Shown: positions 33,567 through 49,885 of the stretch, piece by piece
Numbering within the stretch: position 1 is the stretch's first letter
Layout of the letters: the number at the start of each line of letters is the position of its first letter
Assembly: GCA_040376705.1 (NCBI GenBank)
Contig: JBEIQE010000005.1
Location: 64,156 to 128,155, forward strand
DNA length: 64,000 bases
Direction: 5' to 3'
Origin: Micavibrio sp.
GTDB taxonomy: Bacteria; Pseudomonadota; Alphaproteobacteria; UBA2400
Notes under the pieces: model-generated
Database searches by the model: none
What the model was told of the DNA's origin: nothing
Seen by the model: only the letters and a program-made list of their open reading frames with translations
Program-made: the position numbers and the translations under genes

Positions 33567-34442
33567 ATGAGCGACGCTCCACAGATATTCGACCGCCAGT
33601 TATTAGCCCAGCGCCGCACACGCGCGGCCAGCAGCTTTGCGTCTGCGCGCTTTTTGCACGAAGAAGTGGGCACACGTCTGCTCGAGCGCCTCTCCGAGAT
33701 CAAACGCAGCTTCCCGCTGGCGGTAAATCTGGGCGCGATGGATGGTCACTTAACAAAGCAGCTCATCGGCCAGAATGGCATTGAAAGCGTTGTGCAGTTC
33801 GAGCTGTGCGAAGCATTAGCCCAGCAGGGCAGCAATATTGTGGTGGCAGATGAAGAATGGCTGCCACTGGCCCCGCAAACGGTTAACCTCATCATCAGCA
33901 ACCTCGCGCTGCATTGGGTGAACGACCTGCCCGGCGCACTGGCGCAAATCCGCATGGCGCTGAAGCCGGATGGTTTGTTCATGGGGGCGATATTGGGCGG
34001 CGAGACGCTATTCGAGCTGCGCCGCTGCCTGATGGAAGCCGAGATGGCAGCGACTGGTGGCATCTCCCCGCGCCTCTCGCCCCTCACCGAAGTGCGCGAT
34101 GCCGGCGGACTTATACAACGTGTAGGTTTAGCCCTGCCGGTGGTGGACCGCGAAATGATTACGGTAACCTATGCCGACCCCATCAAACTGCTCTATGACC
34201 TGCGCGCTATGGGCGCGACTAACCTCACCCACAACCGCCCGCGCAAACCACTGACACGCACCGTGCTGATGGATGCGCTCGCGCGCTATCGTGAGCACTT
34301 CACGGTAGAAGAAGACCGCGTACAAGCCACGTTCGAAGTGATTTACCTGGCTGGCTGGGCCCCGCACGAGAGCCAGCAGAAACCCTCCCCACGCGGCAGT
34401 GCCAAGCATTCGCTGGTCGAGGCGTTGTTGCCTAAAACCTAA
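33567..34442 (+). CDS. class-I SAM-dependent methyltransferase, BioC/NDUFAF5-like
   Basis: Divergent from comF as in many alphaproteobacteria; ..NLIISNLALHWVNDLPGAL..LKPDGLFMGAILG... Start placed at internal Met (MSDAPQIF) to avoid overlap with comF; track ORF starts 33519. Confidence 0.65.
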   Translation: MSDAPQIFDRQLLAQRRTRAASSFASARFLHEEVGTRLLERLSEIKRSFPLAVNLGAMDGHLTKQLIGQNGIESVVQFELCEALAQQGSNIVVADEEWLPLAPQTVNLIISNLALHWVNDLPGALAQIRMALKPDGLFMGAILGGETLFELRRCLMEAEMAATGGISPRLSPLTEVRDAGGLIQRVGLALPVVDREMITVTYADPIKLLYDLRAMGATNLTHNRPRKPLTRTVLMDALARYREHFTVEEDRVQATFEVIYLAGWAPHESQQKPSPRGSAKHSLVEALLPKT

Positions 34443-35329
34443 TACCAACGCAGCGTGGATATAAAGTCCTTGCTTGGCTCGCATATAAAATCATCAGTGA
34501 GATTTGCATGTGGCAGCTCTTCTAAAGCATTGGTTCCGCGTAAAATTTCTGTCACTAGCGCTTTTGGCTCGAAAGCAAAACTGCGATAGGACCAATGATA
34601 AAATGATAGTCCCCCGCCAGAAGATTCAATAATCACACGTGCATGATTTTGGCCATATCTAGGGCCATAACTAAGCGTATTGCCAAAATGTGTAAGAGCC
34701 CCATCTTCCATCATTAAAAATGGAGACATCTGCCAAACCGAGCGTAATGGAGTCTTATCAGGCAACTGAACACAGAAGGCCTGACCGGCCATAGAAAAAC
34801 TATGTATGCCCGCAACAGCATAAGCTGTAACATATAAAGATGAGACTAGAACCAAACCAACAAGGCCCACAACAAGAACAATGAATATTCTATTTGCAGC
34901 CGTACGCATGCCGCGAATGTAATATGTAGCTGCTGCCAAAATTACCGCAGCCAGTATCAAGTTCGCGCCAAGCCCACTTAACACTGCCATCATGTCTGCT
35001 GCGTGGATTGTAATCCATGCAGTTACAACCCCAAAAAGCATGGCTATAGCCATAGGTGCCGTCCAGCCTTTCATTAGCGCATACCCAAGCTCCACAGCAA
35101 GCCGCAGAGTTGACCAAATCAAAGCCGAGGCGATAAAAACAAAAGTGCAAAAAAACAAGAAAGCGTTGCTGCGCTTAAATGGAAAATCTGTCAGATGCAA
35201 AGTAATGAACAAAGGCACAAACGCAAAAATTACCGCAACAAATCCCGCATAAAAAGCTTCTTTTGGAAGGCTAAGAACCAGCACTCCGACTAATACAAAG
35301 AATAAAAGCGGAAAAATCAATATTTCCAT
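34439..35329 (-). CDS. integral membrane hypothetical protein (about 6 TM + ~110-aa C-terminal soluble domain), AT-rich
   Basis: Strongly hydrophobic N-terminal two-thirds. Gene body visibly AT-richer than flanks. Confidence 0.5.
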   Translation of the reverse strand: MEILIFPLLFFVLVGVLVLSLPKEAFYAGFVAVIFAFVPLFITLHLTDFPFKRSNAFLFFCTFVFIASALIWSTLRLAVELGYALMKGWTAPMAIAMLFGVVTAWITIHAADMMAVLSGLGANLILAAVILAAATYYIRGMRTAANRIFIVLVVGLVGLVLVSSLYVTAYAVAGIHSFSMAGQAFCVQLPDKTPLRSVWQMSPFLMMEDGALTHFGNTLSYGPRYGQNHARVIIESSGGGLSFYHWSYRSFAFEPKALVTEILRGTNALEELPHANLTDDFICEPSKDFISTLRWY

Positions 35330-37705: not shown

Positions 37706-38299
37706 CTAAGCTGCGCGAAACCAGAAAACCACGTAATCAAAATTATCCGGGCAATCAACCGTTGCTCCATTAATCGGCGGATAGAGGAACTGGTGGTTTG
37801 AATTACCGTCTACCGATATTTGAACGTAGATCATATCCGTGCCATTCTTGGCCAATCCGGCAAACCGCCTGATGATCTGCTTGCACTCGGCCCCACTAAC
37901 CCGACTTTGCTTGCTTGGGATGGACGGCCCATTCATCGTCACATTAAAAACAGGGCAGTTGGAATAACAGGACAAGGCCGTGCGCAGAGAGACCCCAACA
38001 GGCAGCAAAGCTTCCTGATTACTGGCAATCAGCTGTGCGCCGGGCAAAAGGCCGGCACGCACTGAGGTCTGAGTTACATTCACACCAGTACTTGGTGTGG
38101 TTGGGTAGCTCTCACGCGGGTAAAGTCCGCGCGACTGCGCCGCAAAAAGAATGGCATTGGCAACAGTCGTAACGCGGTTCTGTTCGCGCACTTGAGCTGC
38201 CGCCAACCAGATACCGCCAATAACAAGACCAAGAATGCCAAGGATAATGGCTGACTCGATAAGTGAAAATGCACTACGGCTCTGAAAATTGAGGTACAT
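37706..38299 (-). CDS. prepilin-type (type IV pilin/pseudopilin-like) protein, Ala at -1
   Basis: N-terminus MYLNFQSRSA|FSLIESAIILGILGLVIGGIW: class-III signal/N-methylation motif with Glu+5. Start taken at Met24 of the track ORF (37706..38368). AT-rich. Confidence 0.6.
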   Translation of the reverse strand: MYLNFQSRSAFSLIESAIILGILGLVIGGIWLAAAQVREQNRVTTVANAILFAAQSRGLYPRESYPTTPSTGVNVTQTSVRAGLLPGAQLIASNQEALLPVGVSLRTALSCYSNCPVFNVTMNGPSIPSKQSRVSGAECKQIIRRFAGLAKNGTDMIYVQISVDGNSNHQFLYPPINGATVDCPDNFDYVVFWFRAA

Positions 38300-38538
38300 A
38301 CCACGACGATATACATAGGTTTTTCTATTACAAATCAATTTACTGGGCAGATTATGCTTTATGCACAAGACGCATCATTTTTGATCTCCAGACCCACCTA
38401 CTTACTTTGAAAGCGTCTTGGCGAACACAGGAAAGAGGTAGCTTTACGCCAAGCCATGCAGGCTTACGCAGGGTGGATTATGAAAATGCAGCAGGGTCAG
38501 GAAATCGTTACAAACGGGTGGCTAGTTGATTGACCAGT

Positions 38539-39141
38539 TTAGCGTGGGAAAATCAGCGTTAATGCCCCATTTAAGTGACGATCGCAAATGAGATAATATG
38601 GGTCATATCCATTTTGCCGTACACCATTGCGTACATCGTCTCCGCTTATAACGTCACCATGACCATTAACAACGGTTATATAACCTTTAAACTGGCTAAG
38701 GTAAGCGTAACAATCTTCTGGTTGGATTCTTCCGTCGGCGCTGCCAAAGCTAATAGAAAAACTACCGTTCACTTCGGAAGGCCACCCACCAGAGGCATAG
38801 TACCTAATAAAGAGAGCTCCGCCATCTGGCGTTTCTAAGCCGCGCCACTGCATAGTTGGAATAAGATAAGGATAATTAATTACACCCTTGGCCATAAGAT
38901 AATTATGCAGGACTATGTTACCGGAGCTGACTGGCTCGACATGACGAAAATCGTTTTGTAATGTCGAAAGAGCCAGTGAGACGCGCCTGATCGTATCATT
39001 CCGGATAACCCTCGACTGAGCTGCCGCGGCAGCGGTCCAAATCCCACCAATCACCAACCCTACAACACCTAGTACGATGGCGGCTTCAACCAGACTGAAG
39101 CCGCGGCCCAAGCTGATTTGATTTTTGGTAAAATAGTACAT
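38539..39141 (-). CDS. prepilin-type (type IV pilin/pseudopilin-like) protein
   Basis: MYYFTKNQISLGRG|FSLVEAAIVLGVVGLVIGGIW: canonical G-1, F+1, E+5 prepilin motif. Paralog of the downstream gene. AT-rich. Confidence 0.65.
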   Translation of the reverse strand: MYYFTKNQISLGRGFSLVEAAIVLGVVGLVIGGIWTAAAAAQSRVIRNDTIRRVSLALSTLQNDFRHVEPVSSGNIVLHNYLMAKGVINYPYLIPTMQWRGLETPDGGALFIRYYASGGWPSEVNGSFSISFGSADGRIQPEDCYAYLSQFKGYITVVNGHGDVISGDDVRNGVRQNGYDPYYLICDRHLNGALTLIFPR

Positions 39142-39487: not shown

Positions 39488-42244
39488 ATGCTCAGCGCCC
39501 TCTCCCGCCTCGTTTTAGGGAGCTCAACCGCCCGCAATCTCAAGCGCTACGAGAAGAATGTTGCCAAGATCAACGCGCTCGAACCCGCGATGATCGCCCT
39601 GTCGGACGAACAGCTGAAAGCCAAGACCGCCGAGTTCCGCGACCGCCTCGCCAAAGGCGCTACGGTTGACGACCTGCTGATCGAAGCTTTTGCGGTTGTG
39701 CGTGAAGCCGCCAAACGCACCATCGGTCAGCGCCACTTTGATGTGCAGCTCATGGGCGGTATGGCGCTGAACGACCGTTCGATTGCCGAAATGCGCACCG
39801 GCGAAGGTAAAACCCTCGTAGCAACCTTGGCGGTTTACCTCAACGCACTGCCGGGCAAGGGCGTGCATGTGGTTACCGTAAACGACTACCTCGCACGTCG
39901 CGACAGTAGCTGGATGAGCCAGATCTACGGCTTCCTTGGCCTCACCACCGGTGTGATTGTGCACGGCCTTGATGATACGCAGCGCCGCAATGCTTATGCC
40001 TGCGATATTACCTACGGTACCAATAACGAATTCGGGTTTGATTACCTGCGCGATAACATGAAGTATGGCCTGAATGAGATGGTCATGCGCGGCTTCCACT
40101 TTGCGGTGGTCGACGAAGTTGACTCGATCCTGGTTGACGAAGCCCGCACCCCGCTCATCATCTCCGGCCCCTCCACCGACTCATCCGATCTCTACCAGAA
40201 GATCGATGTGCTGATGAAAAAGCTGCAGCCCGAAGATTACGATAAGGAAGAAAAAACCAAGTCAGTCGTGCTGACCGAGCTGGGTACCGAGCGTATGGAA
40301 GAATGGCTGCGCGAAGCCGGCCTGCTCGAAATTGGCGGTCTTTATGATGTGCAGAACGTAGCGCTGGTCCACCATGTAAACGCTGCGCTTAAGGCGCATA
40401 AGCTGTTTACCAGCAATGTTGATTATCTGGTGAAGGACAACAAGGTCATCATCATCGATGAGTTTACCGGCCGCATGATGGAGGGCCGCCGTTATTCAGA
40501 CGGTCTGCATCAGGCGCTTGAAGCCAAAGAGCATGTGGCCATTCAGCGCGAAAACCAGACTCTCGCGAGCATCACCTTCCAGAACTACTTCCGCCTCTAC
40601 CCCAAGCTCGCAGGTATGACCGGTACGGCGATGACCGAAAAGCAGGAATTCGGCGAGATTTACGGCCTTGATGTAACCGTACTGCCCACCAACGTACCGG
40701 TTGCCCGTATAGACCATGAAGATGCGATCTATCTCAACCAGAAGGGCAAGTATCAGGCAATTATCCAGCTCATTAAAGAGTGCGCCGAGCGCCATCAGCC
40801 GGTGCTGGTCGGTACCGTTTCGATTGAAAAATCAGAGCTGCTCTCAGCCGCCCTCACCAAGGCGGGCGTGAAGCATAATGTGCTCAACGCCAAGTTCCAC
40901 GAGACCGAAGCCGAGATCGTCGCGCAGGCTGGCCGTCCGGGTGCAATTACCATCGCCACCAATATGGCAGGCCGCGGTACCGATATTCAGCTCGGTGGTA
41001 ACATCGAGATGCGCATCAAGAGCGAGCTCAAGGACATGCCGGAAGGCCCCGCACGTGATGATGCGATTGCTACCATTAAAACCGAAGTTATGGCCGCACG
41101 CGAGCTGGTACGCAATGTAGGTGGTCTGTTTGTTATTGGCACCGAGCGCCATGAATCACGCCGTATCGATAACCAGCTACGTGGCCGTTCGGGCCGTCAG
41201 GGCGACCCCGGTGCCTCAAAGTTCTTCCTCGCGCTTGATGACGACCTGATGCGCATTTTCGGCACCAACCGTTACGCTGGCATGATGGAAAAGATGGGCA
41301 TGACCGAAGACATGCCGGTGCACGACCGCTGGATTTCAAAAGCGCTCGAGAAAGCACAGCAGAAGGTTGAAGAGCGCAACTTCGATATTCGCAAAAACCT
41401 GCTGAAGTTCGATAACGTAATGAACGATCAGCGCAAGGTCATTTATGAGCAGCGCCGTGAGCTGATGGACAGCAAGGATGTATCCGACGTTATTCAGGAT
41501 ATGCGCCATGAAGTGATTGCCGATGCTGTGCGCGCGGCCATTCCCGAAGGGGCTTATGCCGAGCATTGGAACATCGAAGGTCTGACCGCCGATGCCAAGC
41601 GCGTGCTGGGTCTTGACCTGCCGATTGCCGCCTGGGCCGCTGAAGAAGGCATTGCCGAAATCGAAATCCGCGATCGCCTGACCAAGGAAGCTGACGAGCG
41701 TTATGCCGCCAAGGTGGCCAAGTATACGCCCGACCTCATGCGTCATGCCGAGAAAAACGTATTGCTGCAGCTGCTGGATCAGGGCTGGAAAGAGCATCTT
41801 CTGGGCCTCGACCATCTGCGTCAGGGCATCGGCCTGCGTTCGATGGGTCAGCGCGACCCGCTGAACGAATACAAGCGCGAAGCGTTTGAACTGTTCGGGG
41901 CACTGCTGGATAACCTGCGTGAGCAGGTAACACAGACCCTCATGCGCCTCGAGATTCGCGTGGCCACACCTGAGATGATGATGCCCCAGGGTCCGCGCCC
42001 GCAGGATATGCAGATGATACACCCCAGTGCCGAGCCGATGCTGGTCGGGGCCGAGGCCGAAGTGCCCAGCGCCATGCCCGCTGGCATGAGCCGCCAGGGC
42101 TCGGTGCCGATGCCCGCGCCCAAGCCGCTGCGCAAAATGGAAGTTGATCTGCGCGACCCCACCACCTGGGGCGATACCCCGCGCAATAACGTTTGCCCCT
42201 GCGGTTCGGGCAAGAAGTACAAACACTGCCACGGCAAGGTTTAA
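39488..42244 (+). CDS. secA: preprotein translocase ATPase SecA
   Basis: 918 aa; Walker [18 protein letters not shown]-like [20 protein letters not shown]-terminal zinc-binding [14 protein letters not shown]. Confidence 0.97.
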
Positions 42245-42264
42245 GCTTCGCGTATCAACATAAA

Positions 42265-42291
42265 AGCCCACCCTGAACGGTGGGCTTTTTT
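42265..42291 (+). terminator. rho-independent terminator of secA
   Basis: Perfect 8-bp stem AGCCCACC / GGTGGGCT, 6-nt loop, followed by TTTTTT; 20 nt after secA stop. Confidence 0.85.
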
Positions 42292-42328
42292 CTTGCGCTT
42301 GTGTCATGGTATTGGCTAGCGTGCGGGC

Positions 42329-43204
42329 ATGAGCCAGTCCCACATCAGCATCAACTGTGCTGCAGCGCCTTATAACCCGCTGCCGGTTATTGATGCTGCC
42401 TTTGCACAAGTGGCCCGCATCCGCGCCAACAGCACCGCGCCCATATTTATTCTCGCGGGCGAACAGCATAACGACCAGATCGAAACATTCCTGCCCTATG
42501 TGGCAGCCCATCGCGCTGGTTTACTGGGTGGCACTACAATTCCTCACCAGCTTGCGACCCTGCAATTTGCCCTCGAGCGCCCGCATGATACGCTGCAGAA
42601 GGATCTGACCAAGTTTAAGAAAGACCTTCCCGGTCTGATAAAGCCGCACGATAGGCCATCGGTTCAGCTCGCCCGCATCCTGAGTTTTTATGGCAATGGC
42701 GCTGGCAACCCACAGGATGCCTCACGCGTTATGCTCACGGCTTTTACAGATAACAACGTGCCACTGATCGCTGTCGATGCCAGTATCAAATGGGGCCGGG
42801 TCTTCCCGTTCCTTGACCCCAAGGATGAGCTGACGCGCCAGTTCATGCCTGACGGAGAACCAAGCCACCACCTCGGATTCATGGCGGGCGAACCCCGCGC
42901 AATGCATAGCCGCAACCGGCTTATGGCGCATTTGCTGCAGCAACAGGCGAGCACCCCCAACGCGCTGATCTGGATGAACTGCGGGTATGAGCACCTGTTT
43001 GACGATGCCAAGCACTCAGTGTCCGGCCTCGCAGGCCTGCTAAATGGTCATGTTCTGGTAATTGCCAATACGGCGCATCTGCCCGCCAGTCAGCCAGCAA
43101 CTGACGCATTAATCGTTTTCAGTGATCTGGCTGACACCAGGAATAGTCAAACTGCAACGGCGCATGTTTTGCGCCACCTCAGGCAGGCAACGCCCTCACC
43201 TTAA
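42329..43204 (+). CDS. hypothetical protein X1 (291 aa); possible TIKI/TraB/ChaN/GumN-superfamily fold
   Basis: Two GxxH motifs in the two halves (FILAGEQHND and WMNCGYEHL), reminiscent of the pseudo-twofold TIKI/TraB/EreA/ChaN superfamily. Assignment by eye only. Confidence 0.45.
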   Translation: MSQSHISINCAAAPYNPLPVIDAAFAQVARIRANSTAPIFILAGEQHNDQIETFLPYVAAHRAGLLGGTTIPHQLATLQFALERPHDTLQKDLTKFKKDLPGLIKPHDRPSVQLARILSFYGNGAGNPQDASRVMLTAFTDNNVPLIAVDASIKWGRVFPFLDPKDELTRQFMPDGEPSHHLGFMAGEPRAMHSRNRLMAHLLQQQASTPNALIWMNCGYEHLFDDAKHSVSGLAGLLNGHVLVIANTAHLPASQPATDALIVFSDLADTRNSQTATAHVLRHLRQATPSP

Positions 43205-43262
43205 CGGCATTAACCATAATACCGGCTTGCACTGCGCCAAGCAGCATTGCTACCCTTCGTGC

Positions 43263-43856
43263 ATGCTTAACCGCTTCAACACCCTTGGCACTCGCGCCGC
43301 AGTACGCAGCGTTCAAAGCATCATGCCGCCGGCTCTGCCCGAGATTCAAGACTGGTTACGCAGCAGTGGCGTGCACAAGGCCACACTATTCGGCAGCTCG
43401 CTCTATGCCACCCAGCTGGGCCACCCTAACCGGATTAACGATCACGATCTGATTATTGGCCAGACCGATCTGCGTTGGTGGAAGCTGCGCGAGCGCCTGG
43501 CCCGCACCGCACGTATGGAATACTCAACCGACCACCCGCTGCAGCCCAAGCGGCTTTTCTATACCCTGCCCAGCGGCGTTAAAACCGATGTCTGCCTTTC
43601 ATACGCACCGCGCAGCCCGCGCTTCATGGCCGAGCATGCGCTGTTTGGCATTTCTGCCATTGCGGCAGATGTGTTCACCAAGCAGGTCTGGGTACGGCCT
43701 GAGTTTGAACAGCATATGCGTGAGCATGTCATCCGCCCGCTCAACACTGACGATACAGGCCTTATTCTCCGCTACGCCGATAAAATGTCTGACAAGTTCC
43801 CGGATTTCAGGGTTGATCTGGGCTCGGCCTACCGGCCCAAAAACCATTATGCCTGA
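43263..43856 (+). CDS. Pol-beta-superfamily nucleotidyltransferase-like protein P1 (intact hG[GS]..DhD motif)
   Basis: ..ATLFGSSLYATQLGHPNRINDHDLIIG.. matches the minimal NTase signature (cf. FGSxxxG..SDhDhhh). Downstream ..GVKTDVCLS.. as candidate third acidic residue. Start at Met48 of the track ORF (43122..43856). Confidence 0.5.
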   Translation: MLNRFNTLGTRAAVRSVQSIMPPALPEIQDWLRSSGVHKATLFGSSLYATQLGHPNRINDHDLIIGQTDLRWWKLRERLARTARMEYSTDHPLQPKRLFYTLPSGVKTDVCLSYAPRSPRFMAEHALFGISAIAADVFTKQVWVRPEFEQHMREHVIRPLNTDDTGLILRYADKMSDKFPDFRVDLGSAYRPKNHYA

Positions 43857-43926
43857 TTAACCTATCTCGCCTTGCACAATAGCCACGCCGCTTGCTAGCC
43901 TGCCCGAAAGTAAACAGGGGGCAAAT

Positions 43927-44349
43927 ATGGGTGAGGCAGTTTCACAGGTCAGTCCACAATTCTCGGACCTCGTACGCCGGCGCGAGCTGAGCCTGGTCGC
44001 GCCAACGCGCCATGCCGAAGTCGCCGAGCAGCTTGATGACAGCATCATGCGCCCGCTGCTGGATGAGCAGCTACGCGAATGTATTTTCAACTTCGCACAA
44101 CTCGCCCAGCCTACCGGCACACGGATTGTCAGTGATAACGGGCTCGACCCTGTATTGGCCTATGCGCTCTTCACCGACATACCGGTTTTGCCGCAAGACC
44201 GGGCCGAAGCCGAAGAGCTGGCCTGCGATGAATTCCGCCGCCTCGCCGCACTGGATGATGAAAGCATTCCCGGTGCAGCGCTTACTTTATGCCCGAATGG
44301 CGAGGTTACCCTGCGCCCTGTCATGCAAATGAGGATGATTATACGATGA
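43927..44349 (+). CDS. hypothetical protein X2 (140 aa)
   Basis: Acidic small protein. Stop overlaps start of next gene (ATGA). Confidence 0.4.
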   Translation: MGEAVSQVSPQFSDLVRRRELSLVAPTRHAEVAEQLDDSIMRPLLDEQLRECIFNFAQLAQPTGTRIVSDNGLDPVLAYALFTDIPVLPQDRAEAEELACDEFRRLAALDDESIPGAALTLCPNGEVTLRPVMQMRMIIR

Positions 44350-44864
44350 GCGAAACCTATGCCATTAACGGCCTGCAGTTCAGCCGCCCGTTCCGCACCA
44401 TCATCGAGCCGCACTTCCAGCTGCTCGAACTTGTGGGCGCTAAAGACGCACTGCTTTATGGCAGCTCCATCTGGGCGATCGACCATTTGCAGCTGCGGCC
44501 CGAGCAGCCGTTCAACTACCTCGCCTTCCTGCGGAAGTCGGAGCTGATGCCGATGGCGCGCAAAATGCAAACGACACTCGCCAATTCAGCGGTGGTCGTC
44601 ACCCCAAGAGCCAAGGAAATGGCCATCGAGTTCAAGGCGCGGTTCAATGCCAAGCCGCTTAACATCATCTTCTTCCACGAGCGAATGCCGAGCATTGCCG
44701 AAGTCATAGAAGCTGCCCCCACCGTGGCCGCTGCCGCCATCATGACGCGGCATCAGCAAATCGAGGTAAGCGCCGCCTACAACAACGCCCGCCAGCAAGG
44801 CGGTATTGCACCGCAACCGAATACCTCAGCCAAGAGCCATGCATTTAGTTGGATTTATGAGTAA
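44346..44864 (+). CDS. degenerate paralog P2 of the NTase-like protein
   Basis: ..ALLYGSSIWAIDHLQLRPEQPFNYLAF.. aligns with P1's GSS..DHDLII but lacks the acidic pair. Start at Met20 of the track ORF (44289..44864), translationally coupled to X2. Confidence 0.45.
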   Translation: MSETYAINGLQFSRPFRTIIEPHFQLLELVGAKDALLYGSSIWAIDHLQLRPEQPFNYLAFLRKSELMPMARKMQTTLANSAVVVTPRAKEMAIEFKARFNAKPLNIIFFHERMPSIAEVIEAAPTVAAAAIMTRHQQIEVSAAYNNARQQGGIAPQPNTSAKSHAFSWIYE

Positions 44865-44944
44865 TTTTATTGCTCAAAAAGATGTTGACGGGCAAATTTA
44901 AACCATACTAAGGTTCCTGCCATACAAATTTGCAGGAGCTTCTT

Positions 44945-45433
44945 ATGCAGCGCACAAACGACTCACCCGCGATCACCTCCGCCACCGCTCAGGCCTTCAA
45001 ATTCCTGAGCCAGCTTGGCCTGCGTGAACCGGTGGTCTTTGGCGAAGACGTGGACGCCAGCGCTACCAACAAGCGCAGCGGTAAAGTGCACCTGCAGGTG
45101 GTTGCCGCCCTGCCCGAAGGCCAGAACCCGGTGGCCAGCTGGTTGCGCCTGACGCAAAAGCTGAGCGCCGCCACCAGGCTCAACTCGCGCCGCGCCCCCG
45201 GCGAGATCATGCCACGCGAAGTGATGTTCTATAACGACCAGAGCCAGTTTGGCGTGCTCATCGGCTCGACCCATCTGCACGTGCAGGTAAGTGAGAAGCC
45301 GGTTGCTGCCATGGATATTCTGGCACGCCAGCCGGTCGAGCAGCAGGTAGCCGTGCATACAGCGCAAGGCAGCCTTGCACGTACCGAAACGCAGGCACGC
45401 AAAGACCTGCGCATGCAGCTGGAACTCGCATAA
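44945..45433 (+). CDS. hypothetical protein X3 (163 aa)
   Basis: AGGAG Shine-Dalgarno about 7 nt upstream of ATG 44945. Contains ..VVFGEDVDASATNKRSGKVHLQVV.. weakly resembling the same G[SD]..h.hhh segment. Confidence 0.4.
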   Translation: MQRTNDSPAITSATAQAFKFLSQLGLREPVVFGEDVDASATNKRSGKVHLQVVAALPEGQNPVASWLRLTQKLSAATRLNSRRAPGEIMPREVMFYNDQSQFGVLIGSTHLHVQVSEKPVAAMDILARQPVEQQVAVHTAQGSLARTETQARKDLRMQLELA

Positions 45434-45539
45434 ACAGCGATTAACTCAGCTGTCAGACTGACGCATGGGTAAGCGCAAAATTTCATACAATCGCGCTTGA
45501 CCTTGCGGGCCGAGAAGCCGAATAGAGCATCTTACCAAC

Positions 45540-46127
45540 ATGCTTATCAACGGCCCCATCTTCAGTTATGAGCCCGCCACCATCTCGGCCCTGTACGAGA
45601 ATGTGCTCACTCGTGATTTTGAACTGCTGCAGCGTATTGGTATGCGCGGTGCTGTGGCTTATGGCGATGCGCTGCGCGATGCCGATAACGAAAGCCCCAC
45701 ACATCAGTTCAATTACTATGGCCAGCTGCCACTGGCCAGCAGCAGCTTAACTGCGCTTAGCCTTGTGACCCGCGGCCTGTTGCGCGAGCTCAAGGGCACC
45801 GCCCTGCAAAGCCTGAAGGCCACACAAAACGATAACGCCATGCGCTTTACCTTTACGCTTGAGGGCCGCAAGCTCGACATTACCATGCTTAACAATTGCG
45901 CCCCAGGGGCCGAACTGGCTGCGCGCGCCGCGCCCATCGGCCTTTCGGGTATTGCTGTTAACGATCGGGGCTTCTGCTTCGCCAGCGAAGCCTACCTTGA
46001 CGATAAATCCCTAAAAACCATGACAATAAAACGTGACATGGACCCCAGCGATCGTCATTATGCCCGCAAGCAAGCAGGCTGCCTTTTGGCCCTGCCCGCT
46101 TACAAAGGTTTCAAAATCTGCGGGTGA
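45540..46127 (+). CDS. degenerate paralog P3 of the NTase-like protein
   Basis: ..AVAYGDALRDADNESPTHQFNYYGQL.. ; shares RDADN and FNY elements with P4 and P2 respectively. Confidence 0.45.
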   Translation: MLINGPIFSYEPATISALYENVLTRDFELLQRIGMRGAVAYGDALRDADNESPTHQFNYYGQLPLASSSLTALSLVTRGLLRELKGTALQSLKATQNDNAMRFTFTLEGRKLDITMLNNCAPGAELAARAAPIGLSGIAVNDRGFCFASEAYLDDKSLKTMTIKRDMDPSDRHYARKQAGCLLALPAYKGFKICG

Positions 46128-46133
46128 TTTAAC

Positions 46134-46709
46134 ATGGACCATACGCCTCGTGCCCTTCCACCTTATCTGGAAGAGCTTCGTGATCTTTCAAGCGCCATGG
46201 GCGTAACCAAATCACTGCTGGTAGGTAGCGCCTTGCGCGATGCCGATAACGGCATTCCGGTTACCTCCTACAGCCTCTACATGCTGCCCACGCGCGAAAT
46301 ACCCACCCATAAGGCAATTGAAATCTTCATCAAGGAAAGCGGCCCCGGCAGCCGCCTCATGCGCAGCTTTAACAACAAGCCACGACATGAAGTGCGTATG
46401 GCCACCGGCCAGATTGCCAATATCAACTTCTGCCATGAAGCCTGGATGCTTGAAGCCGAAACCATTGTTAATCGCGTTCCCAACGGACTCTCGGCCGTCG
46501 CGATGGATCTGTTCACGGGTGAGATCAAGAGAACCGAGCTTTATATGCTCGACCGCAATGAAGGCGTGATTACGCAAGCCGTTCCCTCACATGACCTCGG
46601 CAATCTGGTGGCCCTGAGTGTGCAAAAGCGCTACCCCACCTACCCGATTATGGCAGACGGTAACAAGCAGGTGCTATACCCGCCGCTCAAGAGCGTGGCG
46701 CTGGCTTAA
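46134..46709 (+). CDS. degenerate paralog P4 of the NTase-like protein
   Basis: ..SLLVGSALRDADNGIPVTSYSLYML.. (compare P3 YGDALRDADNESP). 6-bp gap from P3. Confidence 0.45.
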   Translation: MDHTPRALPPYLEELRDLSSAMGVTKSLLVGSALRDADNGIPVTSYSLYMLPTREIPTHKAIEIFIKESGPGSRLMRSFNNKPRHEVRMATGQIANINFCHEAWMLEAETIVNRVPNGLSAVAMDLFTGEIKRTELYMLDRNEGVITQAVPSHDLGNLVALSVQKRYPTYPIMADGNKQVLYPPLKSVALA

Positions 46710-46712
46710 CGC

Positions 46713-47387
46713 CTAGCGATTACGGTTGTTGCCGAAAGTCGGGCTGCGGAAAGTAAATTCGCTGCGGCGGAAGTTCTGATCGGTCTTGATGTCCGACAGC
46801 ATGACCTCAGTAGTCACGCCCTGCGCATCAAGCACGCGCCAGCCCAGAATCTGCATTGGCACTTCCTGCATCACCAGCGTCATTTCGCCAGCCTGCGGGT
46901 CTTTGGCCGAGCGCACGGTTACTTCCATTTGCGTAGGATTGGGGTGGCTGACCTTGGCCACCGTCACATCATCGCCACTGAAGTTGAGGTTACGCTTCAA
47001 GAGGAAGCCCGCCAGCGTATCGTCAATACCAGTCTGGCTCTGCTGCTTCATCGCATCATCCCACTGATAGATGTTGGTGCCATCCGCAATGATGAAATCC
47101 TTGCTCGGGGCATCGTACTGAATGTGTACGCGGCCCGGGCGCCAGAGCTTGAAATTGCCGGTTACCTCGCCCACGCTGCCGTCAAGCTGGGTGGCGCGCT
47201 GGGTAAAGCGTGCAGCCAAAGGCTTGAGGCCATTAAAGTAATCTTCGATGCGCTTGAGGTCGCGCTGGTCCTGCTCCGAAATGGTAATCGGCGCGGGTGC
47301 GTCATCCACAGGGGTTGCCGCCTGTGCAACAGGCAGGGCCGAAAAGACGAGAAGGGCTACAAGAGCAGGGCGAAGGAGCATGTTCAT
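46713..47387 (-). CDS. lolA: outer-membrane lipoprotein carrier protein LolA
   Basis: Signal peptide MNMLLRPALVALLVFSALPVAQA; ..ARFTQRATQLDGSVGEVTGNFKLWRPGRVHIQYD..DGTNIYQWD.. parallels E. coli LolA FTQ/LW/DG..LW.Y pattern; 224 aa. Confidence 0.75.
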   Translation of the reverse strand: MNMLLRPALVALLVFSALPVAQAATPVDDAPAPITISEQDQRDLKRIEDYFNGLKPLAARFTQRATQLDGSVGEVTGNFKLWRPGRVHIQYDAPSKDFIIADGTNIYQWDDAMKQQSQTGIDDTLAGFLLKRNLNFSGDDVTVAKVSHPNPTQMEVTVRSAKDPQAGEMTLVMQEVPMQILGWRVLDAQGVTTEVMLSDIKTDQNFRRSEFTFRSPTFGNNRNR

Positions 47388-47493: not shown

Positions 47494-48330
47494 TCAAGCT
47501 GAAGCGAAATACAGCCAGTCTTCGCCAATCACGGCGTTTTCCTTGGGTAGCAGGATATAGCCGTCGGCCGGTGCTGTCAGCACACTGCCATCGCTATAGG
47601 TAGCCAGTAGCTCACCAGCTGTTACGGTTGAGAAATTCTCCCATTTCTTGGGGAAAGTGCCGTCCATCTTCTTGAAATGGATTTCACGCAGCGTGATGTA
47701 GCGTGGCTCATTAAGCGGCATGGGCGCTGCCATCAACCCAAAAAACTGCAAACTGGCCAAGGCAGCATCATAAGCGCGCTCGGGCGCAAGGGCATCGAGG
47801 TGCTGGCCGCACTCAAACGTCAGCGCCTTGCGGCCTACCTGATGGGCATATTCCTGCGTGCTCACTTCGCCATTATTCTCGAGGTGCAGCTCGGTCCAGC
47901 CCATCACCACATAATTGGCCCCCAGCTTGCCCACCCACTGGCGCGAAATGTCATCCGGAAAATCAAGGAATACATAAGGCTGTGTGGGTGCCGAGGTTGA
48001 ATGCAGGTCGAGCAGACAATCGGCAGCCGCCACCAGCGGACAGAGCGCGTTAGCCAGATGATGCTCATGCAGGGTTGGGTTGGCATGCGGGTGGAACACG
48101 CGGTTAAGGTTGGTATCGATATACTGTTTGCCCTGCTGCGCGGCTTTGGCGTTACACTGCGGCACGATGGTGAGCGTGCCTGTGGCAAGCTTCAGTTCGC
48201 CGCTTTCGAGCTGCTGCACCAGTTTGCGCGCAGCTATCTGTCCGCATACCTCTTTACCGTGAATACCGCCAAAGACCAGCAGATGCAGGCCTGCCTGCGC
48301 TGCTTTGAACGTGAATACCTCTGGCTGCAT
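47494..48330 (-). CDS. succinylglutamate desuccinylase/aspartoacylase (AstE/AspA) family zinc hydrolase
   Basis: N-terminal ..LLVFGGIHGKEVCG.. (His/Glu zinc ligands) and ..DLHS.. mid-region motif typical of AstE_AspA (M14-like) enzymes. Confidence 0.72.
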   Translation of the reverse strand: MQPEVFTFKAAQAGLHLLVFGGIHGKEVCGQIAARKLVQQLESGELKLATGTLTIVPQCNAKAAQQGKQYIDTNLNRVFHPHANPTLHEHHLANALCPLVAAADCLLDLHSTSAPTQPYVFLDFPDDISRQWVGKLGANYVVMGWTELHLENNGEVSTQEYAHQVGRKALTFECGQHLDALAPERAYDAALASLQFFGLMAAPMPLNEPRYITLREIHFKKMDGTFPKKWENFSTVTAGELLATYSDGSVLTAPADGYILLPKENAVIGEDWLYFASA

Positions 48331-48400: not shown

Positions 48401-49885
48401 TTAGACGAGTGCGGGCTGTGCCTTAGGCGCGGTAAGTGCCTTGTTCAGGGCAATCATCTCGGCCTCGGTCTTGGCGATAACCACCGCACGGTAGCTGATA
48501 TGGTTGCCACCTGTGGGCACATCGACTACCGCCGGCACAATACCGGTATAACCGCTTTCAGCACCACGATAGAGGTTCTTGCCAAGGTGTTCCGCCACAA
48601 CTTCAAACGCATCGGTGCAGCCTTCAGGCAACGGCAGCTTGCAGCCCTTCGAGAAGGCATGCGGACGCTGGCCCAGATGCTGCTCGGCCTTATGCGCCAG
48701 GCCCAGCAGCGGCGATGCGCCTGAAAGGCGGGTATTGATGTCGTTCATATAAGCGCTCACCGTGCCGTCGGCATTCTCAACCGCAATGGCGTTCACGCTG
48801 ATATAACCGCGGTAGCCATCCTTGTGCATACGCTGCATCAGCTTGTCGGCTGCAATTTCAGTTGGCGTAACTACACGCTCATCTGCTGCCTGCGGCAAGC
48901 GGCTGCCCATATAATGGCCGTTCTGGGTTGAGAGCACGGTGTTTTCAACATGGGTTACGCCCTTGTCACCGATAATCGCTTTCACGCCCACATCGTCGAT
49001 CTTGCCAATCACACCGGGCAGTTTGCCCACATCCACTTCCATCACAATCGGCATGAAGCGCTGAATACCTTTAAACGGATTCTGCGGATCAATCTTGGCA
49101 GTGTTATCGGCAAAGAAACCGCAATCCTGATAGGCCTTGGCAATTTCGCCAAAGGCTTCCATCAGCGAATCTGGGGTTGCATCAGGCTTGCTGATTACGC
49201 CCTGACCGCCCGAAAGCGAGGTGGGCTTGATCCAGACTTTGGTGGTCTCGGGATCGATGCCCTTCTTGAGCATCATGGCGCGGAACTTTCCAGCCTTGGC
49301 GAAAATATCCTTCGGGTCTTCAATCACAACACCGGGGGGCGCGTCAAAGCCCTCTTCAACCGACGTCTGGTGCAGGTATTCCTTACCCACAAACTTGAGG
49401 AAGGTTGAGTTGCTCATCAGCACGCTGGCACCAGTTTTTTCAGCCAGGGCTTCAACCTCTTCGGTTACATACGAGTTGACGATAACCTTACCCTTCAGCA
49501 GGTTCTGGGTTTCAGGCGTATGTGCGGTTGATAGCAGCGCTGTGATAATCGACGCCTCAGGATAGCGGCGGCCCTCAGCAACTGGCTCAATCGCCTTAAG
49601 CGTGCCGCCCTCGGCCAGATAGGTTGAGACATATTGCTGCTGCGCGCGGGTGAGCGGGAAGTGCAGCGCCACGCTTTGCGGGCCAGACATGGCCAGCGTA
49701 TAAGCGGTTGAAACACCTTCAAGGTCGTCAGTCGCGGTCATGCGCCAGGTTGCGCCCTTGGGGTCAACCACCAGCGAATTGATGAAGACAGCATCAGCGG
49801 GCTGCAGGCCCAGATGCTCGGCATAGCTCGCAAAGCCATTAGCCAGATTACCGCGGGTCCATTTGAATTGATGAGGTGTGGTCAT
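48401..49885 (-). CDS. ATP-grasp-fold carboxylate-amine ligase (amidoligase), 494 aa
   Basis: ..KVWIKPTSLSGGQGVISKP.. matches ATP-grasp phosphate-binding loop (hKP..GSGGxGV). C-terminal ..AYMNDINTRLSGASP.. resembles the E/NxN catalytic loop. Paired with AstE/AspA-family gene as in known amidoligase/peptidase associations. Confidence 0.55.
   Translation of the reverse strand: MTTPHQFKWTRGNLANGFASYAEHLGLQPADAVFINSLVVDPKGATWRMTATDDLEGVSTAYTLAMSGPQSVALHFPLTRAQQQYVSTYLAEGGTLKAIEPVAEGRRYPEASIITALLSTAHTPETQNLLKGKVIVNSYVTEEVEALAEKTGASVLMSNSTFLKFVGKEYLHQTSVEEGFDAPPGVVIEDPKDIFAKAGKFRAMMLKKGIDPETTKVWIKPTSLSGGQGVISKPDATPDSLMEAFGEIAKAYQDCGFFADNTAKIDPQNPFKGIQRFMPIVMEVDVGKLPGVIGKIDDVGVKAIIGDKGVTHVENTVLSTQNGHYMGSRLPQAADERVVTPTEIAADKLMQRMHKDGYRGYISVNAIAVENADGTVSAYMNDINTRLSGASPLLGLAHKAEQHLGQRPHAFSKGCKLPLPEGCTDAFEVVAEHLGKNLYRGAESGYTGIVPAVVDVPTGGNHISYRAVVIAKTEAEMIALNKALTAPKAQPALV

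What the first reader, a model, noticed from the sequence alone, without database searches (positions are those of the whole stretch)
42329..46709. Seven-gene same-strand cluster of lineage-specific proteins after secA: TIKI/TraB-like protein, one nucleotidyltransferase-like protein and degenerate paralogs
Immediately after the strong secA terminator, seven plus-strand genes with no recognisable housekeeping function fill the 4.4 kb up to lolA. Four of them (P1 43263-43856, P2 44346-44864, P3 45540-46127, P4 46134-46709) are clear paralogs of about 170-195 aa. They share an N-terminal h-h-[FYV]-G-[SD]-[SA]-h segment about 38-42 residues from the start. Only P1 retains the full Pol-beta nucleotidyltransferase signature (FGSS...NDHDLII plus a downstream TDV). 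In P2-P4 the acidic pair is replaced (FNYLAF, FNYYGQ, SYSLYML), as in inactive NTase-fold proteins. The interleaved genes X1, X2 and X3 are unrelated or only weakly related. X1 has two GxxH motifs suggestive of a TIKI/TraB/ChaN-type metal-dependent fold. The X2 stop and P2 start overlap (ATGA), and P3-P4 are 6 bp apart, which indicates co-translation. Alternating partner plus NTase-like genes, an active member beside inactive paralogs, and placement in a variable slot between secA and lolA would fit a defence, toxin-antitoxin-like or signalling module. It does not match any system I can name.
Basis: partly seen in the sequence, partly recalled or inferred. Interest (0 to 1): 0.75.

Follow-up and report, generated by a model that had tools for sequence, protein, structure and literature searches.

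The report
Array of mostly dead nucleotidyltransferase paralogs
Between secA and lolA this bacterium carries a fast-evolving, lineage-specific cluster built around four copies of a stripped-down CCA-adding/poly(A)-polymerase-type nucleotidyltransferase domain, only one of which still has its catalytic residues; what the cluster does is unknown and it matches no described system.

Summary
Seven same-strand genes fill 42329-46709, and all are under purifying selection.

- **P family.** P1-P4 are real but remote paralogs (14-22% identity). They belong to a family of about 79 sequence clusters of stand-alone, roughly 190-aa class II nucleotidyltransferase (NTase) "head" domains. This is the domain type of CCA-adding enzymes and poly(A) polymerases, and it also occurs in phages and giant viruses.
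- **Catalytic state.** Only P1 keeps G[SG]...DxD...D. P2, P3 and P4 lack the acidic pair in every orthologue, so they are old, conserved pseudoenzymes.
- **Other genes.** X3 may be a truncated fifth paralog. X1 carries a TIKI-like 2His/2Glu pattern, but its fold is unproven. X2 is a small acidic protein coupled to P2.
- **Conservation.** At least four related lineages carry the cluster beside lolA, and three more show fragments. Gene content varies: PAP2_3, an active P5 and a 368-aa gene come and go.
- **Origin.** Base composition is native. There are no defence-database (PADLOC), plasmid or close phage matches.

My best reading is a vertically inherited module with one catalytic NTase and non-catalytic paralogs as binding partners. 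The defence/toxin-antitoxin reading is unsupported. I rate it a new variant of a known kind, of moderate interest.

The parts
42262..42293 (+). secA intrinsic terminator hairpin (AAAAGCCCACC-CTGAAC-GGTGGGCTTTTTT), which separates secA from the cluster
   Evidence: Sequence. RNA fold dG -24.2 kcal/mol, z -6.4 against shuffles. The consensus scan missed it because A-U pairs extend the stem into the T-run.
42329..43204 (+). X1, 291 aa. Putative alpha/beta hydrolase with a TIKI-like E45-x-H47 / E52 or E83 / H222 pattern.
43263..43856 (+). P1, 197 aa. Stand-alone class II NTase head domain with intact catalytic residues G44, S45, D60, D62 and D109. The only predicted active enzyme of the four.
   Evidence: The ATG at 43263 is supported by the orthologue N-termini ML..FN..G.R. 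AF2 pLDDT 89.6. Foldseek PDB top hit is the CCA-adding enzyme 5hc9, E 2.5e-7. Viral stand-alone head proteins reach TM up to 0.65/0.68.
43927..44349 (+). X2, 140 aa. Acidic protein (pI 4.5) of unknown fold, with its stop overlapping the P2 start.
   Evidence: Orthologues occur in L001, L008/L018 and L010 at 35-62% identity. No relation to the P family. A metagenome scan found only one more locus.
44346..44864 (+). P2, 172 aa. NTase-head pseudoenzyme in which the DxD is replaced by N-Y-L.
   Evidence: hhalign P2-P3 95% probability. A6 HMM E 1.5e-12. The DxD is lost in all P2 orthologues. Its active sisters P0020 and P0021 keep NDYDY.
44930..45433 (+). X3, 167 aa, with a TTG start. Basic protein, possibly a truncated and degenerate N-terminal half of a P paralog.
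   Evidence: hhalign against the family gives E 1.4e-3, probability 18%, 96 collinear columns. Against P2 and P3 it gives E 2e-3 to 6e-3. Orthologues occur in L001, L005, L010 and L018. The TTG start is supported by conserved residues upstream of the internal ATG, which is Val in L018.
45540..46127 (+). P3, 195 aa. NTase-head pseudoenzyme that keeps YGDALRDADN, with the DxD replaced by N-Y-Y.
   Evidence: A6 HMM E 2.4e-29. Orthologues P0012, P0014 and P0015. P3-P4 adjacency is seen in at least 6 lineages.
46134..46709 (+). P4, 191 aa. NTase-head pseudoenzyme that keeps VGSALRDADNG, with the DxD replaced by S-Y-S. It is the most widely conserved member of the cluster.
   Evidence: hhalign P1-P4 92% probability. 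A6 HMM E 2.2e-37. P4-type proteins with S.S occur in L001, L005, L010, L018, L020 and L021, plus further representatives. Its stop is 3 nt from the convergent lolA stop.
39488..42244 (+). secA, the left flank (not part of the module)
   Evidence: ORF. The same flank is present in L008.
46713..47387 (-). lolA, the right flank, convergent with P4 (not part of the module)
   Evidence: ORF. Pfam LolA is called on the orthologous flanks. Identity between lineages is 68-84%.

Best explanation
**What it is (shown).** This is a chromosomal, vertically inherited, fast-evolving gene cluster. Its core is a family of stand-alone class II nucleotidyltransferase head domains, the catalytic domain of CCA-adding enzymes and bacterial poly(A) polymerases. 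These proteins lack the neck, body and tail that bind tRNA in those enzymes. P1 keeps the two-metal catalytic residues. P2, P3 and P4 lost them before the lineages split but remain under purifying selection, so they are pseudoenzymes. X3 may be a further, truncated one.

**How it most likely works (inferred).** P1 transfers a nucleotide from an NTP to a hydroxyl acceptor. By analogy with every characterised class II enzyme, the most probable acceptor is an RNA 3' end. The dead paralogs still carry the conserved G-[SG]-x-x-R-D-A-D-N loop and the hGLSAIA core. I infer that they act as non-catalytic binding, specificity or regulatory subunits. The conserved translational coupling suggests two heteromeric pairs, X2-P2 and P3-P4. 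X1, a probable His/Glu hydrolase, would trim or reverse a modification.

**Confidence by step.** I put about 0.9 on the identity and anatomy. I put about 0.25-0.3 on the mechanism.
For: **Fold and family.**
- Exhaustive HMMER with the P profile found 79 representatives, mostly 180-220 aa.
- The profile of 64 of them hits PDB CCA-adding enzymes and poly(A) polymerases at E 3e-5, aligning RRDFTINA with D-h-G-L-S-A-I-A.
- Of the 64, 9 hit Pfam PolyA_pol and 28 hit phrog_1614 'nucleotidyltransferase'.
- The P1 model has pLDDT 89.6. Its Foldseek top 14 hits are class II enzymes. It also matches 2la3, a 191-aa stand-alone 'CCA-adding enzyme head domain', and many phage and giant-virus head-only proteins.

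**Active versus dead.**
- G44, D60, D62 and D109 are invariant in P1 orthologues.
- 55 of 64 family members keep the DxD. The exceptions are mainly P4-type and P2-type.
- A neighbour-joining (NJ) tree shows monophyletic P1, P2, P3 and P4 groups, each dead group with active sisters.

**Selection.** dN/dS is 0.11-0.37 for all seven genes. dN is 3-4.5 times that of lolA and the other flanking genes.

**Native and syntenic.**
- GC and GC3 equal the flanks.
- The cluster lies beside lolA in L001, L005, L010 and L018, with secA on the other side in L008.

**Coupling.** Tight X2-P2 and P3-P4 junctions are conserved across lineages.

**Precedent.** Inactive NTase domains act as RNA-binding modules in NRAP (PMC2794190).
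Against: - No substrate or activity is shown.
- P1 lacks motif B (RRD) and motif D (EDxxR), and the tRNA-binding domains, so RNA is only an analogy.
- The most reduced relative seen, L010 (X2-like, PAP2_3, X3-like, P4-like), shows no active paralog on the contig. The conserved core may therefore not need NTase catalysis, although that contig ends 345 nt upstream.
- X2 and X1 have no assigned fold.
- Heteromer formation is inferred from gene spacing alone.
- dS is saturated, so dN/dS values are approximate.
Confidence: 0.45

Rival explanations
1. It is a conflict system, either anti-phage defence or toxin-antitoxin-like. P1 would be an NTase toxin or effector that modifies tRNA or RNA ends. The acidic X2 and the dead paralogs would act as antitoxins, decoys or sensors.
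For: - The cluster evolves fast and varies in gene content.
- The acidic X2 overlaps the start of the basic P2, a layout typical of antitoxin-toxin pairs.
- Relatives of the family are common in phages and giant viruses.
- NTase toxins that modify tRNA ends exist (MenT, AbiEii; my own knowledge).
Against: - PADLOC gives 0 hits for the 7 proteins and 0 of 64 relatives.
- There are no mobile-element signatures, composition is native and the chromosomal position is fixed across lineages.
- P2, the protein paired with X2, is catalytically dead.
- Active P2-like genes stand alone between trpC and trpD with no partner.
- There are no plasmid or phage tblastn matches.
Confidence: 0.15
2. It is a host-interaction effector family. 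The tandem paralogs would be diversifying under host pressure, some enzymatically dead, and would be exported into a eukaryotic host or competitor together with a TIKI-type hydrolase.
For: - The TIKI superfamily includes the bacterial toxins and effectors RRSP, PMT and HopBA1 (PMC6254334).
- The proteins are lineage-specific and evolve fast.
- Family relatives occur in viruses of eukaryotes.
- Tandem arrays mixing active and degenerate catalytic motifs are typical of effector families such as the Bartonella Beps (my own knowledge).
Against: - No signal peptide, secretion-system gene or chaperone is visible in the cluster.
- The organism's lifestyle is unknown.
- dN/dS is well below 1.
- X1's TIKI membership is itself unproven.
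Confidence: 0.1
3. It is an envelope or lipid-related module. The conserved core (X2, X3, P4) would work with the integral-membrane PAP2_3 phosphatase/phosphotransferase, next to lolA, on a lipid or envelope precursor.
For: - A 397-400 aa PAP2_3 gene lies inside the cluster in two lineages, at different positions: L001 between P1 and X2, and L010 between X2-like and X3-like.
- P4 is always adjacent to lolA and converges on it.
- Some NTase-fold proteins are phosphotransferases acting on envelope polymers (LicD, fukutin; PMC2794190).
Against: - PAP2_3 is absent from the window, with no remnant, and from the visible parts of L005 and L008/L018.
- The P proteins are soluble, with negative GRAVY (hydropathy) scores.
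- Their closest folds are RNA-end enzymes, not LicD.
- Adjacency to lolA may be historical accident.
Confidence: 0.1
4. It is a small-molecule modification set, for resistance or detoxification. An Ere/ChaN-like esterase (X1) and an NTase (P1) would inactivate a natural product, as erythromycin esterases and ANT/Lnu nucleotidyltransferases do.
For: - ANT(6)-Ib appears among the P1 fold matches at E about 1e-2.
Against: - P1 is much closer to class II RNA enzymes than to the ANT or Lnu enzymes.
- This reading gives three or four dead paralogs no role.
- There are no NCBIfam or resistance-model hits.
Confidence: 0.07
5. The dead paralogs are decaying duplicates with no function.
For: The catalytic residues are lost, and identity between paralogs is low.
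Against: - Full-length orthologues of each dead paralog persist in up to seven lineages, with intact frames and dN/dS 0.19-0.37.
- The RDADN loop is strongly conserved in P3 and P4.
Confidence: 0.02

Closest known systems
Class II nucleotidyltransferases: bacterial and eukaryotic CCA-adding enzymes, A-adding and CC-adding enzymes, and bacterial poly(A) polymerase (Pfam PolyA_pol, PF01743)
   Same: - Same head-domain fold and the same motif A (hGG/S...DxD), plus the third carboxylate in P1.
- The helix aligned to RRDFTINA is recognisable.
- Split CC-adding and A-adding enzymes set a precedent for paralogs that cooperate.
   Different: - The P proteins are head-only (about 190 aa against 370-480 aa).
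- They lack motif B (RRD), motif D (EDxxR) and the neck, body and tail that hold tRNA.
- The window proteins are below Pfam detection.
- Three of the four paralogs lack the catalytic DxD.
Stand-alone head-domain NTases: S. pneumoniae NP_344798.1 (PDB 2la3), DUF925/PF06042 (group XX of Kuchta et al. 2009), phage phrog_1614, and head-only proteins of giant viruses
   Same: - Same size and single-domain architecture.
- The P1 model superposes on 2la3 (TM 0.53/0.54) and on the Orpheovirus 189-aa protein (TM 0.65/0.68).
- 28 of 64 family relatives hit phrog_1614.
- Function is unknown in all of them.
   Different: - Those proteins are generally single genes with intact catalytic residues.
- Here the family forms a tandem chromosomal array of 4-6 paralogs, mostly inactivated, with fixed partner genes.
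Non-catalytic NTase-fold proteins, such as NRAP with its duplicated inactive NTase domains (PMC2794190)
   Same: The catalytic carboxylates are lost but the fold is retained under selection. A presumed binding role replaces catalysis.
   Different: These are eukaryotic, belong to a different NTase subgroup, and are fused to PAP/OAS substrate-binding domains rather than encoded as separate small proteins.
TIKI/TraB/ChaN/erythromycin-esterase superfamily (for X1)
   Same: - An invariant E-x-H, Glu and His pattern follows predicted parallel beta strands, as in the 2His/2Glu motif of RRSP and Bcr135.
   Different: - No HMM-level similarity was found.
- The model is low-confidence.
- Generic P-loop-like alpha/beta folds score higher, although X1 has no Walker A motif.
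NTase toxin-antitoxin and defence modules (MenAT/AbiE, MNT-HEPN, CBASS CD-NTases)
   Same: They also pair an NTase-fold protein with a small upstream partner gene.
   Different: - They belong to different NTase subfamilies.
- There are no HEPN, DUF1814 or CD-NTase signatures and no PADLOC hits.
- The partner of X2 is a dead enzyme.

Membership tests
Pol-beta superfamily / class II NTase head domain (PolyA_pol) | Motif A: hG[GS] followed 9-14 residues later by DxD/E | tested here: met
   - P1 reads LFGSS-x12-NDHDLII, and G44, D60 and D62 are invariant in 3 orthologues.
- The feature is not met in P2, P3 or P4 (N-Y-L, N-Y-Y, S-Y-S), although the G[SG] is retained.
Pol-beta superfamily / class II NTase head domain (PolyA_pol) | Third catalytic carboxylate on the following beta strand | tested here: met
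   - P1 D109 is invariant in its orthologues.
- The position is D or E in 52 of 64 family members.
- It is N or another residue in the P4-type proteins.
Pol-beta superfamily / class II NTase head domain (PolyA_pol) | Fold: alpha/beta NTase core plus the helical part of the class II head | tested here: met
   - The P1 AF2 model has pLDDT 89.6 and pTM 0.85.
- Foldseek PDB ranks 1-14 are all class II enzymes, with probability 1.0, E down to 2.5e-7 and TMq 0.51-0.59.
Pol-beta superfamily / class II NTase head domain (PolyA_pol) | Profile-level sequence similarity to the family | tested here: inconclusive
   - The window proteins give no Pfam hit.
- A profile of 64 relatives hits PDB CCA-adding enzymes and poly(A) polymerases at E 3e-5.
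- 9 of 64 relatives hit PF01743, best E 1.7e-4.
- The link is therefore transitive, not direct.
CCA-adding enzyme / poly(A) polymerase proper | Motif B (RRD), motif D (EDxxR), and the neck, body and tail domains that bind tRNA or RNA | tested here: not met
   - The proteins end about 60 residues after the head.
- The position aligned to the D of RRD is L or S in the P1 orthologues.
- No EDxxR is present.
- So P1 is not a CCA-adding enzyme or poly(A) polymerase in the strict sense.
Stand-alone head-domain NTases (2la3 / DUF925 PF06042 / phrog_1614) | A single head domain of about 170-220 aa with a matching profile | tested here: inconclusive
   - Size and fold match: 2la3 at E 8e-3 and TM 0.53/0.54, and viral head-only proteins.
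- phrog_1614 is hit by 28 of 64 relatives and by the L008 P1 orthologue (E 8e-4), but not by the window proteins.
- PF06042 is hit by none.
TIKI/TraB/ChaN/Ere superfamily (X1) | 2His/2Glu catalytic motif placed after strands of the parallel beta core | tested here: inconclusive
   - E45, H47, E52, E83 and H222 are invariant in 4 orthologues.
- They follow predicted strands 39-44, 79-81 and 213-218.
- The pattern agrees with the description in PMC6254334, but it was matched by eye only.
TIKI/TraB/ChaN/Ere superfamily (X1) | Fold or HMM similarity to family members | tested here: inconclusive
   - There is no Pfam hit even at E 10 for the 4 orthologues.
- The PDB profile search found nothing.
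- The model has pLDDT 56.
Known anti-phage defence systems (PADLOC-DB v2) | Any component matching a defence-system model | tested here: not met
   There were 0 hits at E up to 1 for the seven proteins and 0 of 64 family relatives at E up to 0.01.
NTase toxin-antitoxin modules (MenAT/AbiE, MNT-HEPN) | A DUF1814- or MNT-type NTase with a cognate HEPN or antitoxin partner, with toxicity relieved by the partner | tested here: not met
   - No DUF1814, HEPN or MNT Pfam or NCBIfam hit was found.
- P1's best fold matches are class II enzymes, not AbiEii or MNT.
- Toxicity cannot be tested with these tools.
CD-NTase / CBASS-type signalling | A cGAS/DncV-like fold with an adjacent effector | tested here: not met
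   - cGAS appears only at E above 1e-2 with TMq 0.26.
- There is no PADLOC hit.
- There is no recognisable effector gene.

The most novel reading that the evidence does not exclude
The cluster encodes a new kind of multi-subunit nucleotidyltransferase. A single catalytic head (P1, or P5 in sister lineages) is programmed by a set of dead paralogs that supply acceptor or nucleotide specificity. This would extend the CC-adding/A-adding division of labour to pseudoenzyme subunits. The machine would write a defined untemplated tag or nucleotide signal on an RNA or protein target, and X1 would erase it.
Probability: 0.12. Interest if true: 0.75.

Novelty: new variant of a known kind. Interest (0 to 1): 0.45.

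Why it matters
Head-only class II nucleotidyltransferases are widespread in phages, giant viruses and some bacteria, yet none has an assigned function. This cluster offers a natural dissection of the family. One active and three or four ancient inactive paralogs sit together with conserved partner genes in a fixed chromosomal context.

That arrangement gives direct handles for experiments:
- testing which proteins bind each other;
- finding what P1 modifies;
- learning what the dead copies contribute.

If the dead copies prove to be specificity or regulatory subunits, that would be a new way of building a nucleotidyltransferase. It would also help annotate the viral homologues. If not, the cluster remains a lineage-specific oddity of limited reach.

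Tried and rejected
**Searches with the window proteins that found nothing.**
- Direct family scans of the seven proteins (Pfam, NCBIfam, PADLOC, PHROGs) gave nothing usable.
- The P-family profile built from the clade alone hit only spurious repeat proteins in the PDB. The link to class II enzymes appeared only after widening the profile.
- Two genome-contig scans, one with the P1 alignment and one with lolA, returned no relative. Not even lolA was found, so the lineage is absent from or masked in that collection. I do not count this as evidence of rarity, and the organism could not be named.
- tblastn of P1, P4, P5, X1 and two distant relatives against phages and plasmids gave no meaningful matches.

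**X1 and the other partner proteins.**
- The X1 profile against the PDB found nothing, and X1 orthologues against Pfam at E 10 found nothing.
- A P-loop kinase reading (top hits Clp1 and Grc3) was rejected because X1 has no Walker A motif.
- X1 shows no relation to the 368-aa gene of L008.
- X2 shows no relation to the P family.

**Tools and literature.**
- The AFDB Foldseek library was unavailable.
- Literature searches for a characterised head-only class II NTase, for a defence role and for the sample accessions found nothing relevant.

**Other checks.**
- No PAP2_3 remnant was found in the window.
- The window contains no Rfam family and no tRNA gene.

Full report

Seven + strand ORFs occupy 42329-46709 between secA (39488-42244) and a convergent lolA (46713-47387, minus strand). 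The seven are:

| Gene | Coordinates | Length |
|---|---|---|
| X1 | 42329-43204 | 291 aa |
| P1 | 43263-43856 | 197 aa |
| X2 | 43927-44349 | 140 aa |
| P2 | 44346-44864 | 172 aa |
| X3 | 44930-45433 | 167 aa |
| P3 | 45540-46127 | 195 aa |
| P4 | 46134-46709 | 191 aa |

secA is followed by a strong hairpin plus T-run (dG -24.2 kcal/mol, z -6.4). X2 and P2 overlap by 4 nt, P3 and P4 are 6 nt apart, and the P4 and lolA stops are 3 nt apart.

All seven have orthologues of 51-62% identity in a related metagenomic contig (L001). dN/dS is 0.11-0.37, and dN is 3-4.5 times that of lolA and the next two genes. dS is saturated, so the ratios are approximate. These are real genes that evolve fast under purifying selection. 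GC and GC3 match the flanks, so there is no sign of recent import.

**2. Paralogy**

P1-P4 share only 14-22% identity. Profile comparison of orthologue pairs nevertheless links them: P1-P4 at 92% probability (E 6e-7), P2-P3 at 95% (5e-8) and P3-P4 at 69% (5e-5). An HMM built from 63 outside relatives plus P1 recovers P4 (2e-37), P3 (2e-29) and P2 (1.5e-12). It recovers nothing else in the 64-kb window.

X3 aligns weakly but collinearly with the N-terminal half of the family (E 1.4e-3, 96 columns). It may be a truncated, degenerate fifth copy. X1 and X2 are unrelated to the P family.

**3. What the P family is**

None of the seven proteins hits Pfam, NCBIfam, PADLOC or PHROGs. The word-indexed search of 5.8 billion proteins found only orthologues.

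The exhaustive HMMER search found 79 representatives, mostly 180-220 aa. Their consensus is LFGGALRD.D...DYD ... D ... GLSAIA.D..G..W...Y..D...TLT ... KYP. Several results place this wider family among class II enzymes:

- A profile of 64 of them hits PDB CCA-adding enzymes and poly(A) polymerases at E 3e-5 over the whole head domain.
- 9 of 64 hit Pfam PolyA_pol, and 28 of 64 hit phrog_1614 'nucleotidyltransferase'.
- With that alignment, AlphaFold2 models P1 at pLDDT 89.6 and pTM 0.85.
- Foldseek against the PDB returns class II CCA-adding, A-adding and poly(A) polymerase structures at ranks 1-14 (best 5hc9, E 2.5e-7).
- The same search returns 2la3, a 191-aa stand-alone 'CCA-adding enzyme head domain' of S. 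pneumoniae.
- Against viral models, P1 matches many head-only proteins of 167-230 aa from phages and giant viruses.

The P family is therefore a divergent branch of stand-alone class II NTase head domains. Single-domain NTases of this general kind (DUF925/PF06042) were classified in 2009 as probably active but without assignable function (PMC2794190). I found no later functional study.

**4. Active and dead copies**

P1 orthologues keep G44, D60, D62 and D109. P2 (N-Y-L), P3 (N-Y-Y) and P4 (S-Y-S) lack the acidic pair in every orthologue seen.

In the wider family, 55 of 64 members keep the DxD. The exceptions are mainly P4-type and P2-type proteins. A rough NJ tree shows each of P1, P2, P3 and P4 as a monophyletic orthologue group. 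Active sisters sit next to the dead groups: P5 and P0045 next to P4, and P0020, P0021 and P0033 next to P2 and P3. Duplication and inactivation therefore predate the split of these lineages.

P3 and P4 retain a strikingly conserved [YV]G[DS]ALRDADN loop, which suggests a retained ligand-binding role (inference). P1 lacks motif B (RRD), motif D (EDxxR) and the tRNA-binding neck, body and tail. It is not a CCA-adding enzyme or poly(A) polymerase proper.

**5. The cluster in relatives**

| Locus | Gene order seen |
|---|---|
| L001 | X1-P1-PAP2_3-X2-P2-X3-P3-P4-lolA |
| L008 + L018 (one lineage) | secA-[368 aa]-P1-X1-X2-P2-X3-P3-P4-P5(active)-lolA |
| L005 | ...P2-X3-P3-P4-lolA |
| L010 | X2-like-PAP2_3-X3-like-P4-like-lolA-argH |
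| L020 | P3-P4-P5(active) |
| L021 | P3-P4 |

lolA identity between lineages is 68-84%, against 38-57% for P4. The cluster is thus an old, syntenic feature of this clade. Its recurrent genes are X2, X3, P3 and P4. P4 is the only P paralog seen in every lineage sampled, and P3 is missing from the most reduced locus, L010. P1, P5, X1, PAP2_3 and the 368-aa gene come and go. The window lacks PAP2_3 without any remnant.

Elsewhere, active P2-like genes stand alone between trpC and trpD in two contigs with alphaproteobacterial gene order. One relative lies next to RNA polymerase Rpb1 on a 257-kb giant-virus-like contig. Fusions to NUDIX and to HAD-like plus DUF84 NTPase domains also occur.

**6. 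The partner genes**

*X1.* X1 has only three homologues in the large database. Its invariant residues include G44-E45-x-H47, E52, E83-x-P-H86, D150, R195-N-R197, G219-x-E221-H222 and H241.

*X2.* X2 is consistently acidic (pI 4.5-4.9; 6.5 in L010) and tightly coupled to the basic P2. Its fold is unknown, and a metagenome scan found only one further locus.

**7. How it most likely works**

*Shown.* There is one catalytically competent class II-type head (P1) and three, perhaps four, conserved pseudoenzyme paralogs. Coupling of X2-P2 and P3-P4 is conserved. Composition is native, inheritance is vertical, and evolution is fast.

*Inferred.* P1 transfers an NMP to a hydroxyl acceptor. RNA 3' ends are the default acceptor because all characterised class II enzymes act on them. 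The dead paralogs would serve as binding, specificity or regulatory partners, as inactive NTase domains do in NRAP. X1 would hydrolyse or reverse something.

*Weak points.* No activity is known. P1 lacks the nucleotide-selecting motifs. The reduced L010 locus shows no active copy on the contig.

**8. Rivals**

- *Defence or toxin-antitoxin.* The features in favour are fast evolution, the acidic-plus-basic overlapping pair and the viral relatives. PADLOC is empty for both the proteins and their family, and the locus is fixed and native. The partner of X2 is a dead enzyme, and active singletons need no partner.
- *Secreted effectors.* This would fit the TIKI precedent and the array of active and dead paralogs. 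There is no secretion signal or machinery in view, and the host biology is unknown.
- *Envelope or lipid role.* PAP2_3 inside the cluster in two lineages and the constant lolA adjacency suggest this. PAP2_3 is dispensable here, and the fold points to RNA enzymes.
- *Small-molecule modification* (an Ere-like esterase plus an NTase). This is weakly suggested and gives the dead copies no role.
- *Decay.* This is excluded by the conservation described above.

**9. Novelty and verdict**

The fold and superfamily are known, and head-only relatives are known but uncharacterised. What is new is the organisation: a conserved chromosomal array of mostly inactivated head-domain paralogs with dedicated partner genes. 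I found no description of it, and it matches no catalogued system.

I rate it a new variant of a known kind, with interest 0.45. The organism could not be identified. The genome collection returned nothing even for lolA. The window's gene content (ptsP, aspartate kinase, a PpiC-type isomerase, ftsK, ubiH) is ordinary chromosomal housekeeping. I take it, from my own knowledge of gene order, to be compatible with an alphaproteobacterium.

Noticed in passing
window 37706-39141 (- strand): Two adjacent genes (200 aa and 220 aa) have prepilin-like N-termini (GFSLVEAAIVLGVVGLVIGGIW and AFSLIESAIILGILGLVIGGIW). One gives a weak N_methyl hit. Their GC is clearly lower (0.47-0.50, GC3 0.43-0.52) than the 0.57 background, so they may have been acquired or be fast-evolving pilins or pseudopilins just upstream of secA.
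   Followed up: partly
window 48401-49885 (- strand): A 494-aa protein has no Pfam or NCBIfam hit yet is 87% identical to its orthologue in L001. It is conserved next to an AstE/AspA-like gene (47494-48330) in L001 and L005. It is a well-conserved unknown.
   Followed up: partly
window 46709-46713; L005 2248-2251; L010 3161-3164; L018 3745-3748: The last P gene and lolA converge with stops 2-3 nt apart or overlapping by 4 nt, leaving no room for terminators (the gap is 24 nt in L001). Transcription from the two sides must collide or read into the opposite gene.
   Followed up: no
L001 1810-3003; L010 769-1971: A 397-400 aa integral-membrane PAP2_3 gene (55% identical between the two loci) lies inside the cluster at different positions in two sister lineages. 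It is cleanly absent from the window.
   Followed up: partly
L018 3152-3745; L020 726-1301: A sixth paralog, P5, with an intact NDYDLLV motif follows P4 in two sister lineages and overlaps its 3' end. The window lineage has no P5.
   Followed up: partly
L008 483-1589: A 368-aa acidic protein with no family hit lies between secA and P1 in one lineage only. It carries LGDMDH and GGAHG motifs but shows no detectable relation to X1.
   Followed up: partly
L009 4532-5203; L016 6350-7006: Single, catalytically intact P2-like genes are inserted between trpC and trpD on the opposite strand. The same place is used in two different contigs with lexA-comEC-trpC-trpD gene order.
   Followed up: partly
L014 8001-8582: A family member sits immediately downstream of an RNA polymerase Rpb1 gene on a 257-kb contig. 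That contig also encodes Rpb2, SAP and PDDEXK proteins and looks like a giant virus.
   Followed up: no
P0066, P0068 (L017 6189-8519): Family members are fused to a NUDIX domain (388 aa) or to HAD-like phosphatase plus DUF84 NTPase domains (776 aa). This hints at a link to nucleotide metabolism in the wider family.
   Followed up: partly
Genome-contig collection: Neither P1 nor the well-conserved lolA of this window found any relative among 185,579 species representatives, although the window comes from an NCBI genome. The lineage seems to be missing or masked there, so the organism could not be named.
   Followed up: no
window 6127-8580 (+), 34439-35329 (-): Two further long ORFs (817 aa and 296 aa) have no NCBIfam or Pfam hit. 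I did not check whether they are real genes.
   Followed up: no
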